Part shown: positions 1,046 to 10,038 of the stretch, one piece after another
Layout of the letters: every line of letters begins with the position of its first letter
Position numbering within the stretch: the first letter of the stretch is position 1
Source: a virus
Lineage: Duplodnaviria; Heunggongvirae; Uroviricota; Caudoviricetes
Virus record (IMG/VR): IMGVR_UViG_2711768004_000011
DNA: 10,038 bases
Strand: one strand, 5' to 3'
Notes under the pieces: generated by a model
What the model saw: the letters and a program-made list of their open reading frames with translations, nothing else
What the model was told of the DNA's origin: nothing
Databases searched by the model: none
Program-made: the position numbers and the translations under genes

Positions 1046-1336
1046 TTAACTGTTTTTGCCTGGATACTGTCTTCGAGAATGCACAATATTTACTACTTCT
1101 ATGCTTGATGCTGTTACTCGGTAAAGGATGATGTAGTTAGGATGAGTTACAATTTCACGAAGACCAAGAACTCGCTCGCTTGGAGGATACAGGTAAGGAT
1201 GCTCTGTGAGCGGCAAAACGGATGTTTCAATTCGAATTTTCATTCTGCGTGCTGCCGCGGGATTTTCTTTAGCTATGTAGGCTACGATCTGGCGCAAATC
1301 ATCACGAGCAGATGGTAGCCATAAAACGGGTAACAT
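1046..1336 (-). CDS. parE: ParE/RelE-superfamily type II toxin (ParE2-like)
   Basis: 96-aa product MLPVLWLPSARDDLRQIVAYIAKENPAAARRM...HPNYIILYRV...VVNIVHSRRQYP has the characteristic ParE-family layout. Its start overlaps the stop of the upstream small ORF by 1 nt, the usual antitoxin-toxin arrangement. Confidence 0.8.
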   Translation of the reverse strand: MLPVLWLPSARDDLRQIVAYIAKENPAAARRMKIRIETSVLPLTEHPYLYPPSERVLGLREIVTHPNYIILYRVTASSIEVVNIVHSRRQYPGKNS

Positions 1337-1530
1337 TATTCACCTCTGTGAGTTGCAGCAGCAATTTGGGCAATAATTTGTTCCATTTCCGCCATTACCT
1401 CATCATGCGGAATCGCCGGGCGGGGATCCGCGAGGCTTGCTGCTACTTTGGCCCGCAGCCATTCGTTGTAACTATTTTCTTGCTCAACTGTCTCAAATTC
1501 TGAAACCATTGGGGAAAGGACTGTACTCAT
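1336..1530 (-). CDS. small antitoxin partner of ParE (PaaA2-like)
   Basis: 64-aa acidic ORF immediately upstream of and coupled to the ParE-like gene. A strong RBS (GAGGAG) sits 7 nt before the ATG. The sequence ...SPMVSEFETVEQENSYNEWLRAKVAASLADPRPAIPHDEV... resembles the PaaA2 antitoxin as I recall it. Confidence 0.65.
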   Translation of the reverse strand: MSTVLSPMVSEFETVEQENSYNEWLRAKVAASLADPRPAIPHDEVMAEMEQIIAQIAAATHRGE

Positions 1531-1549
1531 TTTACATATCTCCTCTGAT

Positions 1550-2080
1550 TTAGGCGCGACGGCCTTTTTGTGCAGCTAACCACCGCGCAACCGTACGATC
1601 CATTGATTCTTTTTTATCTTTCATCTCCTGAAGCATGTGTTCTTGATCTTCTTTCGGAAAAGCTCTGAACGTATGGATTAAATCTCGTTCCATCGGCTCT
1701 ACGGCAAACGGTAGTTCATCCTCTGTTTGTTCTGTGTCTGCTGGTAATGCGACTATGTTATCTTGCTGTGGTTCTCGACAATACATCCTTGCAATTTGCA
1801 GCAAATCTACCATGTCTGGCCTGATTGACTCAGGGGGAACTTTCAGTAAGCCAGCAAACTTTAGAACAGCCTCAAGGTTTAGTGGGGTTTGACCATTTAG
1901 GTAGTGACTTACCGCCCCTTGTGTTGAAAACCCCATAATTTCCGCCGCACGTTCCTGAGTCAATCCCAACTGAGATTTCTTTGCCATCCAGATTTCTTTC
2001 AGTCTTCTGGCGGCGTTGAGGTCGGTGTCTGACAATGATTTTCTTTTCATACATCCAATTCTAATAAGATTGCTAATCAC
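1550..2080 (-). CDS. CI-like HTH (XRE-family) repressor without S24 peptidase domain; PaaR2-like regulator
   Basis: 176-aa product with a classical HTH: LGLTQERAAEIMGFSTQGAVSHYLNGQTPLNLEAVLKFAGLL. It is divergent from the Cro-like gene and heads the antitoxin-toxin operon with a 19-nt gap. The C-terminal half shows no Ser/Lys peptidase motif. Confidence 0.7.
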   Translation of the reverse strand: MISNLIRIGCMKRKSLSDTDLNAARRLKEIWMAKKSQLGLTQERAAEIMGFSTQGAVSHYLNGQTPLNLEAVLKFAGLLKVPPESIRPDMVDLLQIARMYCREPQQDNIVALPADTEQTEDELPFAVEPMERDLIHTFRAFPKEDQEHMLQEMKDKKESMDRTVARWLAAQKGRRA

Positions 2081-3989: not shown

Positions 3990-5071
3990 ATGAAAAACAT
4001 TGCGGCAGCCGGGGTTCTTGAACGTATTCACAGACTTGCACCACAGGGGGCGGTTCCACCGTACCGGACGGTGGAGGAGTGGCGGGNNNNNNNNNNNNNN
4101 NNNNNNNNNNNNNNNNNNNNNNNNNNNNNNNNNNNNNNNNNNNNNNNNNNNNNNNNNNNNNNNNNNNNNNNNNNNNNNNNNNNNNNNNNNNNNNNNNNNN
4201 NNNNNNNNNNNNNNNNNNNNNNNNNNNNNNNNNNNNNNNNNNNNNNNNNNNNNNNNNNNNNNNNNNNNNNNNNNNNNNNNNNNNNNNNNNNNNNNNNNNN
4301 NNNNNNNNNNNNNNNNNNNNNNNNNNNNNNNNNNNNNNNNNNNNNNNNNNNNNNNNNNNNNNNNNNNNNNNNNNNNNNNNNNNNNNNNNNNNNNNNNNNN
4401 NNNNNNNNNNNNNNNNNNNNNNNNNNNNNNNNNNNNNNNNNNNNNNNNNNNNNNNNNNNNNNNNNNNNNNNNNNNNNNNNNNNNNNNNNNNNNNNNNNNN
4501 NNNNNNNNNNNNNNNNNNNNNNNNNNNNNNNNNNNNNNNNNNNNNNNNNNNNNNNNNNNNNNNNNNNNNNNNNNNNNNNNNNNNNNNNCAGGCCAAATCC
4601 ATAGCTGACGAACTGATGACCGGGTGCACGAATTTTGTGTTCAGCGGTAAAACCGGCACCGGGAAAAATCACCTTGCAGCGGCGATGGGTAACCGGCTGA
4701 TGGCGAAGGGGCGCAGCGTGATTATCGTCACCGAGTCTGATGTCATGAGCGTGTTGCATGACAGCTACGACAACGGCAAATCCGGTGAAAAATTTTTACA
4801 GGAGCTTTGCGGGGTTGATTTGCTGGTCCTGGATGAAATAGGCATTCAGCGGGAGACGAAAAACGAGCAGGTGGTATTGCACCAGATAATTGATCGCCGG
4901 ACAGCATCACTGTGCAGTGTCGGGATGTTAACAAACCTGAATCATGCCGCAATGAGCACGCTTCTTGGTGAGAGGATTATGGACCGCATGACCATGAACG
5001 GTTGTCGGTGGGTGACGTTTAACTGGGATAGCTGGCGTTCAAATGTCAGCTTTCCGGGAGTTGTGAAGTAA
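3990..5071 (+). CDS. DnaC-like replicative helicase loader (lambda P analogue; Rac YdaV-like), interrupted by an assembly gap
   Basis: N-terminus MKNIAAAGVLERIHRL resembles E. coli DnaC (MKNVGDLMQRL...). The post-gap part carries Walker A GKTGTGKNHLAAAMG and Walker B LLVLDEIG. The C-terminus ...WVTFNWDSWRSNV matches the DnaC C-terminus as I recall it. The two parts are in different frames across the N-run. Confidence 0.8.
4087..4588. other. assembly gap (502 N)
   Basis: Uninterrupted run of N from 4087 to 4588. Confidence 0.99.
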
Positions 5072-6256: not shown

Positions 6257-6313
6257 GTGAAATTAGCTATCAGGCTTCAATTACCGCTGGCATTCGCATC
6301 AAAGGAGAGGAGC

Positions 6314-6670
6314 ATGGAAATAAAACCAGAAGATGAGTTAAGCAATATTGTTTTATTTCCGGTAAAAGAGGATAACCCTCGTAATCAGGTTAATTTTCTT
6401 TATGAGCCATCGGAAAGACCATATTGCCATCACGCTTCTGTCCGGGTTGACGAAAAAGAGCGTCAGGTCCGCTGTAAAATTTGCGGTGCAGTTGTGGAGC
6501 CATTTGACTGGATGCTCTCTGTGGCGAAAAGAGAAACCAGACTGGCAGATGATGTAAGGCTCTTGCGCCAGGAGGAGCGGGAAAGGCGAAAAAATATAGA
6601 AAAGCTAATCCAGATTGAGCGTAATGCGAAAGCGCGGATACGCAGGGTGACAAAATATAGCCCCGAATAA
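6314..6670 (+). CDS. hypothetical small protein with putative zinc-ribbon (C-H-H...C-K-I-C) and a basic coiled C-terminus
   Basis: ATG at 6314 is preceded by a strong RBS (AAGGAGAGG); the ORF track begins at GTG 6257. Contains the motif PYCHHASVRVDEKERQVRCKICG. Confidence 0.5.
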   Translation: MEIKPEDELSNIVLFPVKEDNPRNQVNFLYEPSERPYCHHASVRVDEKERQVRCKICGAVVEPFDWMLSVAKRETRLADDVRLLRQEERERRKNIEKLIQIERNAKARIRRVTKYSPE

Positions 6671-6884
6671 TCAAGGTTATTTCTGGAAGTCAAGTCGTGA
6701 GTGATGAGGACTAACAAATACGGTGAACTCGATAAAGAGATTCAGGACGAACTGGAGGCCAGGAATGATTGACAAATCACCAAGTGAGTTCAGCTACAAA
6801 GATTTATTGTCATAACGGGTTATGAGATCGACTTGGTGCGTGATATTCTTCGGGCCAGTTTGCTATGCGCCACCATGAGATGTT

Positions 6885-8717
6885 ATGGCCCGCATGTTTG
6901 ATACATTAGGATTTTACATTATGAATGTGCAACATTTTGATTTTTTTACAGATAATGAGTTTTCTAATCTGGAAAGATATCAAACTTGTAAAGCCATGGC
7001 CAAAGGTTATGCGGGCAATTACAAAACCGGGCAGTCAAGGTTGATGCATGCCCGCTCATACTGCTTCAGCATCGTAGCTGCATATTGGGATACCCTTGCA
7101 AAAAAGCAAAAAAGCAGCATTAAAATGAGGGCAGTACCGCACACTGTTTACATAGAAGACATTCCATGTGATGCACGCGAGCTCGCTGAACGAACAGGTG
7201 AGCTTATTGCTCAATTTCCGGCGGAGGACGCTGGATATCTGATTGGGTCAATTTATACGGTAATGCTGCCATCCGCTTACCGTTCGGAATTGGGGGCTTA
7301 CTATACCCCCCCACCTTTGGTAGCGCGTCTCTTGGACCTGGCTGAAAAGTCTGGTGTTGATTTTTCTCATGCATCGGTTATTGATCCTGCGTGTGGTGGC
7401 GGTGCATTTTTGGCACCAGTAGCCATTCGAATGTTAAAAAAAGACAAGGGGTCTTCCCCTGAATGGATGTTGAGGAGAATCAGTCGTCGTTTAAAGGGGA
7501 TAGAGATCGATCCATTTGCGGCTTGGATGAGTTTGGTATTGCTCGAATCTGTACTAATGCCACTATGTGTAAAGGTAAAACGTAGATTGCCTGAAGATAC
7601 AATTATTGTTGCTGATGCGCTTCAGCAAGATAAATTTTCTGGTTATGATCTTGTGGTAGGGAATCCGCCTTACGGACGTGTCACTCTCGATATTAAAACG
7701 AGAGAAAAATATTCTCGTTCGTTATTTGGTCATGCAAATCTATATGGATTGTTCACCGACTTAGCTGTTCGCATGGTTAAAGAGAAAACAGGAGTTATTG
7801 CATTTCTTACGCCAACTTCTTTTCTTGGTGGGCAGTATTTCACCGCGCTGCGAACCCTTTTGACCGAAAAAACTACTCCGTATGCCCTTGATTTCGTCAC
7901 TGACAGGGATGGGGTCTTTGACGATGTTCTCCAGGAAACAATGTTGACAGCATTCAAGGCGGGAGAACATAAAGTTCGGGCCCAGGTATCCTCACTTGTC
8001 CCTAAGGGGTTGAACAAAGCAAAAATTGAGAAAATAGGTAATGTTGATATAGAAAAAGGTGGAGCAACGTGGCTTTTGCCACGCGTTAAAGATGATGCCT
8101 GTTTTCTTAATGTATTAAAACAGATGTCTACGCGTTTAGCTGATCTGGGATACTCAGTCTCTACAGGTCAGTTAGTCTGGAATCGATTTAAGTCGCAGTT
8201 GCGTACGACGAAAGGAAAAAATAGCTACCCATTAGTCTGGGCGGAATCAATAACTTCAGCTGGTTTTCGTTTTAGTGCAGACAGAAAAAATCATGTTCCC
8301 TATATCGATATAACCCCACAACAGGGTTTCCTTGTGACAAAATCTGAATGTGTGCTTGTTCAGCGGACAACATCGAAGGAACAGGACAGAAGGATTTTAG
8401 CGGCAATTTTACCTCAGGGATTTATAGATGAAACTGGTGGCGTAGTAGTTGAAAACCATATTAATATTGTATATTCAAACGGATTGTTCTCTGCGGTTCG
8501 CCCTGATGTTATTGATATGCTACTTAATTCGCATGTTGTCGATCGGGCGTTCAGGTGTATAAGCGGAAGTGTTGCTGTTTCGGCCTATGAATTGAATTCA
8601 ATCCCGTTGCCTTCTCTGGAGCAGGTGATGGAGATTCAATCGTTAATTGATGCTGGCGTCCACAGACGGATTATTGAGAGAACTATCGCTGGTTTCTATG
8701 GAGTGATGATTGCATGA
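6885..8717 (+). CDS. gamma-class N6-adenine (amino) DNA methyltransferase, TaqI/Eco57I-like, with C-terminal target-recognition region; start may be ATG 6921
   Basis: Motif X-like GAYYTPPPLVARLL (~7297-7335), motif I VIDPACGGGAFL (~7383-7412) and motif IV VVGNPPYGRV (~7656-7682) occur in gamma-class order. They align with M.TaqI (ETPPEVV / LEPACAHGPFL / LGNPPYG) as I recall it. GC content is markedly lower than in the phage replication genes. Confidence 0.85.
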   Translation: MARMFDTLGFYIMNVQHFDFFTDNEFSNLERYQTCKAMAKGYAGNYKTGQSRLMHARSYCFSIVAAYWDTLAKKQKSSIKMRAVPHTVYIEDIPCDARELAERTGELIAQFPAEDAGYLIGSIYTVMLPSAYRSELGAYYTPPPLVARLLDLAEKSGVDFSHASVIDPACGGGAFLAPVAIRMLKKDKGSSPEWMLRRISRRLKGIEIDPFAAWMSLVLLESVLMPLCVKVKRRLPEDTIIVADALQQDKFSGYDLVVGNPPYGRVTLDIKTREKYSRSLFGHANLYGLFTDLAVRMVKEKTGVIAFLTPTSFLGGQYFTALRTLLTEKTTPYALDFVTDRDGVFDDVLQETMLTAFKAGEHKVRAQVSSLVPKGLNKAKIEKIGNVDIEKGGATWLLPRVKDDACFLNVLKQMSTRLADLGYSVSTGQLVWNRFKSQLRTTKGKNSYPLVWAESITSAGFRFSADRKNHVPYIDITPQQGFLVTKSECVLVQRTTSKEQDRRILAAILPQGFIDETGGVVVENHINIVYSNGLFSAVRPDVIDMLLNSHVVDRAFRCISGSVAVSAYELNSIPLPSLEQVMEIQSLIDAGVHRRIIERTIAGFYGVMIA

Positions 8718-9796
8718 ATCTGCCTGTTGTTCCCCCATTGAATGTTATCCGGGAAAGATTACAATTAATTTTCCCTGAAGGGACTGAGAATCGTGGATAT
8801 TTAATTCGGGAAATAGCTGCAAAAACAATTTTTGTCATGTTTTATGCTGGTGCGGTTGAGGGGCTGGGGCGATGGATAAGGCCCAGCCAGGTTGTAAGTA
8901 TGGGAGATTCGCAGGCTGCTCTTACTGATGATGCGTCCAGAGAAAGCTGGGTAAAGATGACTTTCTCTAAACAAAAGATAAGGCCTGCTGATGCATGGTA
9001 TGCGGAAAATACGCGTGAGCCAATACGTGATGAAACTATAAAAAATGGCCTAATACCTTGCAATGCAATTGTTGAGCGTAAAGGTATACCCACCACATCC
9101 TCTCGTCCTCGTTACAGTTTGAATCGCTCTTTTGCAGCACTCTTTGATGCCGGGCTTGAAGGAGATTCGCTGCTGAGTGCAATAAGTTCCTGGCAAGAAA
9201 ATCATTTGAACAAAGCCGCTCTTGCTAGGTTGCGTTTATTGAAATCAGGGGCAGTGATTGCTGCTGATGCCGTAGTCGTCACTTTCCCAAATGGAGAGAA
9301 GAGAACTTTAGCTCCGGGCCCGTCAAGTACAATAGCTAAGGCCGTCATCGAAGTTTTTGCTCCTAATTTTCTTAAGAATCCAACTGTGCTCTGGTTGTCT
9401 GAATCCGGGAATAAAGTTGTTGCTCAGGATGATGTATTGGCAAAAGCATTGGGGCTGAATATTGATGCCTCAAAAGCACTTCCAGATATTATTTTGATTG
9501 ATTTGGGAGAGGACCGAACGGGTTCGGACATGCTTGTAGTTTTCACTGAAGTAGTTGCGACAGATGGGCCTATAAACAGGGAACGAAAAGTTACTCTCAC
9601 TCATTTGGCTATTGACGCTGGGTTCAGCGAGAAAAATCTTGCATTCCTTACGGCATTTATGGACAGAAGTGCTCTGCCTTTTAAAAAGGCAATACCAGAA
9701 TTGGCGTGGGGATCTTATGCATGGTTTGCTTCTGAACCGGAGCACTTAATTGATCTTCGGGATGGTTATCCGGTAAAGATCAGCCAGAGAAAATGA
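8714..9796 (+). CDS. partner of the methyltransferase: putative restriction endonuclease (possibly BsuBI/PstI-like); function not established
   Basis: 360-aa ORF whose ATG overlaps the MTase stop (ATGA at 8714-8717), with the same low-GC composition. A possible degenerate nuclease core lies at ALPDIILIDLGEDRTGSDMLVVFTEVVATDG. The family assignment is from weak recall, not a search. Confidence 0.5.
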   Translation: MNLPVVPPLNVIRERLQLIFPEGTENRGYLIREIAAKTIFVMFYAGAVEGLGRWIRPSQVVSMGDSQAALTDDASRESWVKMTFSKQKIRPADAWYAENTREPIRDETIKNGLIPCNAIVERKGIPTTSSRPRYSLNRSFAALFDAGLEGDSLLSAISSWQENHLNKAALARLRLLKSGAVIAADAVVVTFPNGEKRTLAPGPSSTIAKAVIEVFAPNFLKNPTVLWLSESGNKVVAQDDVLAKALGLNIDASKALPDIILIDLGEDRTGSDMLVVFTEVVATDGPINRERKVTLTHLAIDAGFSEKNLAFLTAFMDRSALPFKKAIPELAWGSYAWFASEPEHLIDLRDGYPVKISQRK

Positions 9797-9948
9797 CCAA
9801 AGTTTGATATCCGCCACGCCCTGAAGGATGGGGGTTTTACGGTGCACTGGATAAAAAATCGGTTTCATAGATTTGCCCACCGTGGTATACGCCTGCGATA
9901 AAAACTTTATTGTCATCAACGGCAAAAGCAATAATTGTTCTGTGGCGG

Positions 9949-10038
9949 GGTGATGCTGCCAACTTACTGATTTAGTGTATGATGGTGTTTTTGAGGTGCT
10001 CCAGTGGCTTCTGTTTCTATCAGCTGTCCCTCCTGTTC
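9949..10038 (+). mobile_element. IS1 left-end fragment (IRL and start of element); continues beyond the right window edge
   Basis: GGTGATGCTGCCAACTTACTGATTTAGTGTATGATGGTGTTTTTGAGGTGCTCCAGTGGCTTCTGTTTCTATCAGCTGTCCCTCCTGTTC matches the IS1 left terminus as I recall it. It is in the same orientation as the fragment at 1-103. Confidence 0.85.

What the first reader, a model, noticed from the sequence alone, without database searches (positions are those of the whole stretch)
6885..9796. Low-GC methyltransferase plus overlapping 360-aa partner inserted in the prophage: candidate R-M or novel defence module
A gamma-class N6-adenine MTase (YYTPP, DPACGGGAFL, NPPYG) is translationally coupled (ATGA overlap) to a 360-aa protein. 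Both are much more AT-rich than the adjacent replication genes (about 25-40% GC in sampled stretches versus about 60%), arguing for horizontal acquisition as a cargo module. The partner has no HNH, GIY-YIG or clean PD-(D/E)xK signature I can verify by eye; a PD...E-V-V stretch near residues 265-295 could be a degenerate nuclease core. If it is not a known type II restriction endonuclease (BsuBI/PstI-like is my best guess), the pair would be a methylation-linked effector system of unknown mechanism.
Basis: partly seen in the sequence, partly recalled or inferred. Interest (0 to 1): 0.7.

Follow-up and report, generated by a model that had tools for sequence, protein, structure and literature searches.

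The report
Ordinary PstI-family restriction-modification gene pair
The two overlapping genes are a conventional type II restriction-modification system, an adenine DNA methyltransferase plus a BsuBI/PstI-family restriction endonuclease, carried as cargo in a lambda-like prophage and already annotated as such in public E. coli genomes.

Summary
The two ORFs are real: a 610-aa methyltransferase (6885-8717) and a 360-aa partner (8714-9796), joined by an ATGA overlap, with the three methyltransferase motifs in gamma-class order. The AT-richness is real but overstated: 43.6% GC against 51-55% for the replication genes, not 25-40% against 60%.

The partner is not an unknown effector. It matches both Pfam domains of the BsuBI/PstI restriction endonuclease family over its full length (E 1e-30 and 9e-45). 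It also matches a PADLOC type II REase model end to end (E 3e-128) and the SdaI crystal structure by sequence and by predicted fold.

The same pair, more than 99% identical, sits in lambdoid prophages of 2 of 5426 complete E. coli genomes. RefSeq annotates the endonuclease there as a BsuBI/PstI family type II restriction endonuclease. In 80 of 80 related loci across many phyla, a methyltransferase gene lies directly upstream on the same strand.

It is a distinct clade, only 26-27% identical to the CTGCAG-specific prophage system EcoGIII, so its recognition sequence is undetermined. Verdict: an ordinary, already known kind of system. Low interest.

The parts
6656..6884 (+). Left junction of the cargo and the untranslated region upstream of the methyltransferase gene. 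No controller (C) protein ORF and no convincing promoter were found.
   Evidence: Homology with an R-M-less prophage (L084) ends at 6655. Only ORFs of 32 aa or fewer lie here. The promoter scan found no site here, and its total count for the region was at chance level.
6885..8717 (+). Gamma-class N6-adenine DNA methyltransferase, 610 aa. The true start may be Met13 at 6921.
   Evidence: Pfam Eco57I E 1.7e-13 and N6_Mtase E 2.1e-9, both above cut-off. PADLOC MTase_II PDLC03338 matches residues 7-608 of a 604-position profile, E 1.8e-300. TaqI methyltransferase is the best PDB hit. Motifs lie at residues 139/167/260. It is 26% identical to the BsuBI/EcoGIII-type methyltransferase over residues 248-584. 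Homologue alignments start at residues 11-30.
8700..8717 (+). Translational coupling signal: GGAG (8700-8703), a 10-nt spacer, then ATGA, in which the endonuclease start codon overlaps the methyltransferase stop codon.
   Evidence: Read directly from the sequence.
8714..9796 (+). BsuBI/PstI-family type II restriction endonuclease, 360 aa. It has an N-terminal winged-helix DNA-binding domain (about residues 10-172) and a C-terminal PD-(D/E)xK-variant catalytic domain (about residues 188-349, with D258 and E279).
   Evidence: Pfam PF17728 E 1.2e-30 and PF06616 E 9.3e-45. PADLOC REase_II PDLC03589 matches residues 3-351 of a 364-position profile, E 2.8e-128. SdaI 2ixs matches by sequence at E 1.8e-16 and by fold at E 3.6e-13, probability 1.00, as the only significant hit. 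All 109 columns that are invariant across 21 clade members are kept.
9797..9850 (+). Right junction of the cargo. It overlaps the stop codon and last few codons of the convergent ParE gene at 9837-9850.
   Evidence: Homology with an R-M-less prophage (L086) begins at 9851. The stretch is identical to the same spacer in E. coli FDAARGOS_943.

Best explanation
This is an orthodox type II restriction-modification system with two separate enzymes, carried as a roughly 3.2-kb cargo module (about 6656-9850). It lies in the variable region between the replication genes and the DUF968/RusA/Q genes of a lambdoid E. coli-type prophage.

Shown here:
- Gene 1 is a gamma-class N6-adenine DNA methyltransferase.
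- Gene 2 is a BsuBI/PstI-family endonuclease with the SdaI-type two-domain build: an N-terminal winged-helix recognition domain and a C-terminal PD-(D/E)xK-variant nuclease.
- The methyltransferase-then-endonuclease order is conserved in every related locus examined.

Inferred from established knowledge of type II systems:
- The methyltransferase methylates an adenine on both strands of a short, probably palindromic site, which protects host and prophage DNA.
- The endonuclease cuts the same site when it is unmethylated, so incoming phage or plasmid DNA is destroyed.
- The methyltransferase-first order and the ATGA/GGAG coupling tie endonuclease synthesis to prior methyltransferase translation. 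This stands in for the controller protein that this system lacks.
- For the prophage the module gives superinfection exclusion. Through post-segregational killing, it may also stabilise the prophage.

The recognition sequence is not determined. All characterised family members known to me share a CTGCAG core (PstI, BsuBI, EcoGIII and YenI cut CTGCAG; SdaI and SbfI cut CCTGCAGG). That makes a CTGCAG-related site a reasonable prior, but no more.
For: Family assignment:
- Full-length matches to both Pfam domains of the family.
- End-to-end matches to type II-specific PADLOC models for both proteins.
- SdaI is the only significant PDB match, by sequence and by predicted fold.
- D258 and E279 align with SdaI D233 and E248 and are invariant in the clade.

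Public annotation:
- RefSeq annotates copies more than 99% identical as "BsuBI/PstI family type II restriction endonuclease" and "HsdM family class I SAM-dependent methyltransferase" in two E. coli prophages.

Conserved pairing:
- 80 of 80 loci from 80 species have a methyltransferase directly upstream on the same strand.
- 76 of these are orthologous, near-complete matches (one cut by a contig end).

Selection:
- There are 17 synonymous against 5 non-synonymous differences to the VL7S7 copy.

Precedent:
- The EcoGIII/BsuBI-type system of Stx2a prophages also has a methyltransferase gene followed by an endonuclease gene with a 4-nt overlap. It methylates CTGCAG and has an active endonuclease (PMC3893438).
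Against: - No enzymatic or methylome data exist for this clade in anything I could search.
- No promoter could be identified, so expression in the lysogen is unproven.
- The position of SdaI K251 holds Ala in this clade (EVVA[T/S]DGP). However, the active EcoGIII-type enzyme also lacks Lys there (ESVTSHGP), so this does not argue for inactivity.
- The structure model has only moderate confidence (pLDDT 67.7, TM 0.40-0.45 to SdaI).
Confidence: 0.92

Rival explanations
1. The module works mainly as a selfish addiction (post-segregational killing) cassette that stabilises the prophage, and phage defence is secondary. The biochemistry is the same; the selected function differs.
For: It sits in a cargo slot next to another addiction-type module, ParDE. 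A further ParE/PaaA2 toxin-antitoxin set lies beside the repressor. It is rare in E. coli, found in 2 of 5426 genomes, yet spread across many phyla. That pattern fits a mobile selfish element.
Against: Nothing here separates the two roles. Type II systems generally do both. No stability data exist.
Confidence: 0.25
2. Only the methyltransferase is active. It would act as an epigenetic or anti-restriction methylase for the phage, and the endonuclease would be a decayed or inactive passenger.
For: Endonuclease genes of prophage BsuBI-type systems do decay. The ArgO145 copy is frameshifted. The canonical Lys of PD-(D/E)xK is not at the SdaI position.
Against: The ORF is intact and full length. 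It keeps all 109 columns that are invariant across 21 clade members from distant taxa. Its differences from a second E. coli copy are mostly synonymous: 6 synonymous against 2 non-synonymous. The missing Lys is shared with the active EcoGIII-type enzyme (PMC3893438).
Confidence: 0.06
3. A novel methylation-linked defence effector of unknown mechanism, or part of BREX or MADS.
For: There are weak NCBIfam hits of the methyltransferase to the BREX PglX and MADS MAD2 models.
Against: Those hits are 17-37 bits against cut-offs of 400-900 bits, and they cover only the shared catalytic domain. The partner is a full-length BsuBI/PstI endonuclease. The module holds only two genes, and in related prophages the flanks are ordinary phage genes.
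Confidence: 0.01

Closest known systems
EcoGIII / BsuBI / PstI type II R-M systems (CTGCAG), including the copy carried by Stx2a prophages of E. coli O104:H4, O145 and O103
   Same: - Same two protein families.
- Same methyltransferase-then-endonuclease order with a 4-nt overlap (L003 and L085).
- Also carried by lambdoid prophages of E. coli (PMC3893438).
- Same PD...E core, and no Lys at the position of SdaI K251.
   Different: - The endonuclease is only 26% identical over 75% of its length. The methyltransferase is 26% identical over its C-terminal 340 residues.
- The proteins fall in different PADLOC models: PDLC03589/03338 here, PDLC03420/03227 for EcoGIII.
- The methyltransferase here is about 120 aa longer at the N-terminus.
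- The EcoGIII cassette sits directly after cI. This one sits after the replication genes.
- The specificity of this clade is unknown.
SdaI (CCTGCAGG), PDB 2ixs, the only solved structure of the family
   Same: Two-domain build, with a winged-helix recognition domain and a PD-(D/E)xK-variant nuclease domain. It is the only significant PDB match by sequence (E 1.8e-16) and by fold (E 3.6e-13). D258 and E279 align with D233 and E248.
   Different: Identity in the fold alignment is about 22%. SdaI has Lys at 251 (EAVKSKGP) where this clade has Ala (EVVATDGP). This protein has about 40 extra residues. The predicted domain arrangement differs (TM 0.40-0.45), which may only reflect the moderate quality of the model.
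Fused BsuBI/PstI-type enzymes of about 840 aa (PADLOC PDLC03359; YenI of Yersinia enterocolitica is the example I recall, from memory)
   Same: Both window proteins match this single model. The methyltransferase matches at positions 28-257 and the endonuclease at positions 595-831.
   Different: Here the two activities are separate polypeptides with a stop codon between them. The matches are partial and weak (E 2e-27 and 2e-13).

Membership tests
BsuBI/PstI family type II restriction endonuclease | N-terminal BsuBI_PstI_RE_N winged-helix domain (Pfam PF17728) | tested here: met
   E 1.2e-30, 106.6 bits against a cut-off of 27. Residues 10-172 cover profile positions 2-136 of 140.
BsuBI/PstI family type II restriction endonuclease | C-terminal BsuBI_PstI_RE catalytic domain (Pfam PF06616) | tested here: met
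   E 9.3e-45, 152.2 bits against a cut-off of 27. Residues 188-349 cover profile positions 2-152 of 154.
BsuBI/PstI family type II restriction endonuclease | Acidic active-site residues of the PD...E core. These are SdaI D233 and E248; their catalytic role is recalled from Tamulaitiene et al. 2006 and was not read here. | tested here: met
   P257-D258 and E279 align with SdaI P232-D233 and E248. They are invariant in 21 clade members.
BsuBI/PstI family type II restriction endonuclease | Lys of the (D/E)xK element at the SdaI K251 position | tested here: not met
   This position is Ala282 in the window protein and in the whole clade. It is not family-wide, because the EcoGIII-type enzyme has Thr there and is reported active (PMC3893438). 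I therefore do not treat it as a defining feature of the family. R291 and K234 are conserved candidates for the basic residue.
BsuBI/PstI family type II restriction endonuclease | SdaI-like fold | tested here: met
   In the Foldseek search of the PDB, 2ixs_A scored E 3.6e-13, probability 1.00, over 358 aligned columns. The next hit had E 0.16. The model is of moderate quality, pLDDT 67.7.
BsuBI/PstI family type II restriction endonuclease | Cleavage within a CTGCAG-containing site | not testable with these tools
   No methylome or cleavage data were found. The only hint is that 3 of 80 loci pair this endonuclease clade with a methyltransferase that scores best on the PstI-type model.
Orthodox type II R-M system (separate methyltransferase and endonuclease) | An adjacent, co-oriented cognate methyltransferase gene, conserved with the endonuclease | tested here: met
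   80 of 80 loci have a methyltransferase homologue directly upstream on the same strand. In the window the two genes overlap by ATGA.
Orthodox type II R-M system (separate methyltransferase and endonuclease) | Site-specific methylation that blocks cleavage at the same site | not testable with these tools
   This needs a methylome or biochemistry.
Gamma-class N6-adenine DNA methyltransferase | Motif order X (TP), I (DPACGGG), IV (NPPY), followed by a C-terminal target-recognition region | tested here: met
   Motifs lie at residues 139, 167 and 260. Pfam N6_Mtase and Eco57I score above cut-off. The TaqI methyltransferase is the top PDB hit.
BREX PglX / MADS MAD2 methyltransferases | A score above the NCBIfam cut-off, and the multi-gene system context | tested here: not met
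   Scores are 17-37 bits against cut-offs of 400-900 bits. No other BREX or MADS genes lie in the window or in the E. coli relatives.
Type IIG / fused RM enzyme | Methyltransferase and nuclease in one polypeptide | tested here: not met
   There are two ORFs in different frames, separated by a TGA stop.

The most novel reading that the evidence does not exclude
This large, well-conserved but apparently uncharacterised clade of BsuBI/PstI-type systems corresponds to PADLOC models PDLC03589/PDLC03338. It may recognise a sequence different from the CTGCAG and CCTGCAGG sites of all characterised family members. If so, the window would encode a restriction enzyme of new specificity, and the methyltransferase's extra N-terminal region of about 120 aa could have a role of its own.
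Probability: 0.4. Interest if true: 0.2.

Novelty: already known. Interest (0 to 1): 0.08.

Why it matters
It matters little beyond correct annotation. The result removes a candidate "novel defence system" from the list. It also documents a second, diverged lineage of PstI-family R-M cargo in E. coli lambdoid prophages, besides the EcoGIII cassette of Stx2a phages. That lineage is rare, present in 2 of 5426 complete genomes.

In practice, strains carrying it would have an extra m6A motif and an extra barrier to transformation and phage infection. The only open question of some value is the recognition sequence of this clade.

Tried and rejected
- **Near-identical DNA in the phage collection.** Only the IS1 end matched, so the module is not in any deposited phage genome.
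- **NCBIfam for the endonuclease.** No model matched.
- **Literature on this clade's specificity.** I searched RefSeq protein accessions, the strain name, BsuBI with SMRT/motif, and CTGCAG with methylome. All of these led only to EcoGIII papers.
- **XphI lead.** A relative lies on a Xanthomonas phaseoli ATCC 49119 plasmid (L034), and I tested whether it might be XphI, a PstI isoschizomer I recalled. No paper supports this, so I dropped it.
- **Promoter and terminator scan of 6500-10038.** Promoter-like counts were at chance level and terminator-like counts only slightly above, with no usable promoter upstream of the methyltransferase gene.
- **Controller protein.** No ORF longer than 32 aa lies in the upstream spacer.
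- **Rfam on the whole window.** No matches.
- **Repeat search around the module.** Only short, chance-level repeats, with no flanking target duplication or terminal repeats.
- **Palindrome-avoidance statistics on the 80 loci.** I considered this as a way to guess the recognition site but did not run it. It would cover about 1 Mb from 80 unrelated genomes with no control set, so it would not be interpretable.
- **Type IIG, BREX and MADS readings.** Rejected on score and context.
Full report
**1. What is in the sequence**

The window holds two co-oriented ORFs at exactly the stated coordinates: 6885-8717 (610 aa) and 8714-9796 (360 aa). The stop codon of the first and the start codon of the second share the tetranucleotide ATGA at 8714-8717. 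A GGAG lies 10 nt upstream of that ATG.

The first protein carries YYTPP, DPACGGGAFL and NPPYG at residues 139, 167 and 260. This is the motif order X-I-IV of gamma-class N6-adenine methyltransferases.

The composition claim is right in direction but too strong.
- The pair is 43.6% GC, with GC3 of 36-37%.
- The upstream replication-region genes are 51-55% GC, with GC3 of 53-56%.
- Only single 100-nt windows reach 26% in the pair or 65% in the O-like gene.

**2. What the proteins are**

The 360-aa partner matches both Pfam domains of the BsuBI/PstI restriction endonuclease family, and the two matches together span the protein.
- PF17728 (winged-helix domain): E 1.2e-30, residues 10-172.
- PF06616 (catalytic domain): E 9.3e-45, residues 188-349.

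Further evidence points the same way.
- It matches a PADLOC type II REase model end to end (PDLC03589, residues 3-351 of a 364-position profile, E 2.8e-128).
- Its only significant PDB relative by sequence is SdaI (2ixs, E 1.8e-16).
- An AlphaFold model built on 21 homologues has mean pLDDT 67.7. In a Foldseek search of the PDB it again finds SdaI alone (E 3.6e-13, probability 1.00, 358 aligned columns). The next hit has E 0.16.

P257-D258 and E279 align with SdaI P232-D233 and E248. Both are invariant across 21 clade members from Enterobacterales to Burkholderiales, Xanthomonadales and beyond.

The position of SdaI K251 is Ala in this clade (EVVA[T/S]DGP). The EcoGIII-type enzyme has Thr there (ESVTSHGP) and is reported to be biochemically active (PMC3893438). 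The Lys is therefore not a family-wide feature, and its absence does not suggest inactivity.

The 610-aa protein scores above cut-off on Pfam Eco57I and N6_Mtase. It matches a PADLOC type II methyltransferase model over its whole length (PDLC03338, E 1.8e-300). Its closest solved relative is the TaqI methyltransferase. Its hits to the BREX and MADS methyltransferase models are 17-37 bits against cut-offs of 400-900 bits, and so reflect only the shared catalytic domain.

**3. Related sequences and context**

The module is 99.9% and 99.3% identical over 3.2 kb to DNA in two of 5426 complete E. coli genomes, FDAARGOS_943 and VL7S7. In both it lies in a lambdoid prophage integrated next to potC.
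- Upstream are the replisome-organiser, DnaC-like and DUF977 genes.
- Downstream are a ParE/ParD pair, DUF968, RusA and Q.
- RefSeq names the genes "HsdM family class I SAM-dependent methyltransferase" and "BsuBI/PstI family type II restriction endonuclease".

Comparison with prophages that lack the module places its borders after 6655 and before 9851. In those prophages the same slot holds other accessory genes: hokD, an HTH/ImmA pair, ead/Ea22, DUF551 and eaa. The neighbouring ParDE pair occurs in 328 genomes, the R-M in 2. The R-M is therefore a separate, rare cargo in a variable region.

Against the VL7S7 copy, the two genes differ by 17 synonymous and 5 non-synonymous codons.

Outside E. 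coli the endonuclease clade is large.
- At least 120 clusters have 62% identity or more.
- 277 of the species-representative genomes scanned encode a relative. They include Proteobacteria, Acidobacteria, Chloroflexi, Bacteroidetes and Firmicutes.
- In all 80 loci fetched, a methyltransferase homologue lies directly upstream on the same strand. In 76 it is the orthologous long form.
- In three loci (L025, L027, L051) it is a shorter methyltransferase that scores best on the PstI/BsuBI-type model.

**4. Mechanism**

Three things are shown: the family membership of both proteins, the conserved methyltransferase-then-endonuclease pairing, and the intact catalytic core.

The rest is inferred from what is established for type II systems.
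- The methyltransferase methylates an adenine in a short site on host and prophage DNA.
- The endonuclease cuts unmethylated copies of that site on incoming DNA.
- The methyltransferase-first order with the GGAG/ATGA coupling delays endonuclease synthesis relative to the methyltransferase. There is no controller-protein ORF.
- The prophage gains superinfection exclusion and possibly stabilisation by post-segregational killing.

I could not identify a promoter. Expression in the lysogen therefore remains an assumption.

**5. Comparison with what is known**

The nearest characterised systems are the CTGCAG-specific PstI/BsuBI/EcoGIII group and SdaI. EcoGIII is itself carried by Stx2a prophages of E. 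coli and has the same gene order and 4-nt overlap (PMC3893438).

Identity to that group is only 26% for the endonuclease and 26% for the methyltransferase. The two groups fall into separate PADLOC models. This is a different, already catalogued clade of the same family. Its recognition sequence is not known to me, and I could not find it in the literature.

**6. Verdict**

Novelty: already known. Interest is low, about 0.08. The only open item is the specificity of this clade.

Noticed in passing
window 1046-2080 (- strand): A three-gene set resembles the PaaR2-PaaA2-ParE2 toxin-antitoxin system.
- HTH regulator: 1550-2080, 176 aa.
- PaaA2-type antitoxin: 1336-1530, Pfam PF21217, E 3e-23.
- ParE toxin: 1046-1336, PF05016, E 2e-17.

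The regulator sits where a cI repressor would be, divergent from a cro-like gene at 2135-2425. The prophage's immunity repressor and a toxin-antitoxin operon therefore appear to be one unit.
   Followed up: partly
window 9837-10038: The last 36 codons of a second ParE/RelE toxin gene (9837-9948, - strand) are all that remains of it. An IS1 end (GGTGATGCTGCCAACTTACTGAT...) begins at 9949 and truncates the gene. The intact ParE-ParD pair is present at this position in E. coli FDAARGOS_943 and VL7S7.
   Followed up: yes
window 4087-4588: A run of 502 N masks most of the DnaC-like ATP-binding replication gene, so that gene cannot be assessed.
   Followed up: no
L025 4410-7071, L027 4407-7059, L051 767-3995: In 3 of 80 loci the same endonuclease clade (PADLOC PDLC03589, 53-60% identical to the window protein) is paired with a shorter methyltransferase of 511-537 aa. 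That methyltransferase scores best on the PstI/BsuBI-type model PDLC03227 (E 1e-97 to 1e-115). The L027 copy is 32% identical to the EcoGIII-type methyltransferase. This suggests methyltransferase exchange or an intermediate lineage, and it weakly hints at a CTGCAG-like site.
   Followed up: partly
window 6257-6670 (+): A 137-aa ORF lies just upstream of the cargo. It has a CxxC...CxxC-like stretch (CHHASVRVDEKERQVRCKICG) followed by a basic, probably coiled, tail. It is conserved in prophages with and without the R-M, and RefSeq annotates it only as hypothetical.
   Followed up: no
window 6885-6921: The methyltransferase start codon is uncertain. Alignments to homologues and to the PADLOC model begin at residues 7-30, and Met13 (ATG at 6921) is preceded by AGGA. 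The N-terminal region of about 100-120 aa is poorly conserved, absent from the PstI-type methyltransferase, and matches no Pfam domain.
   Followed up: partly
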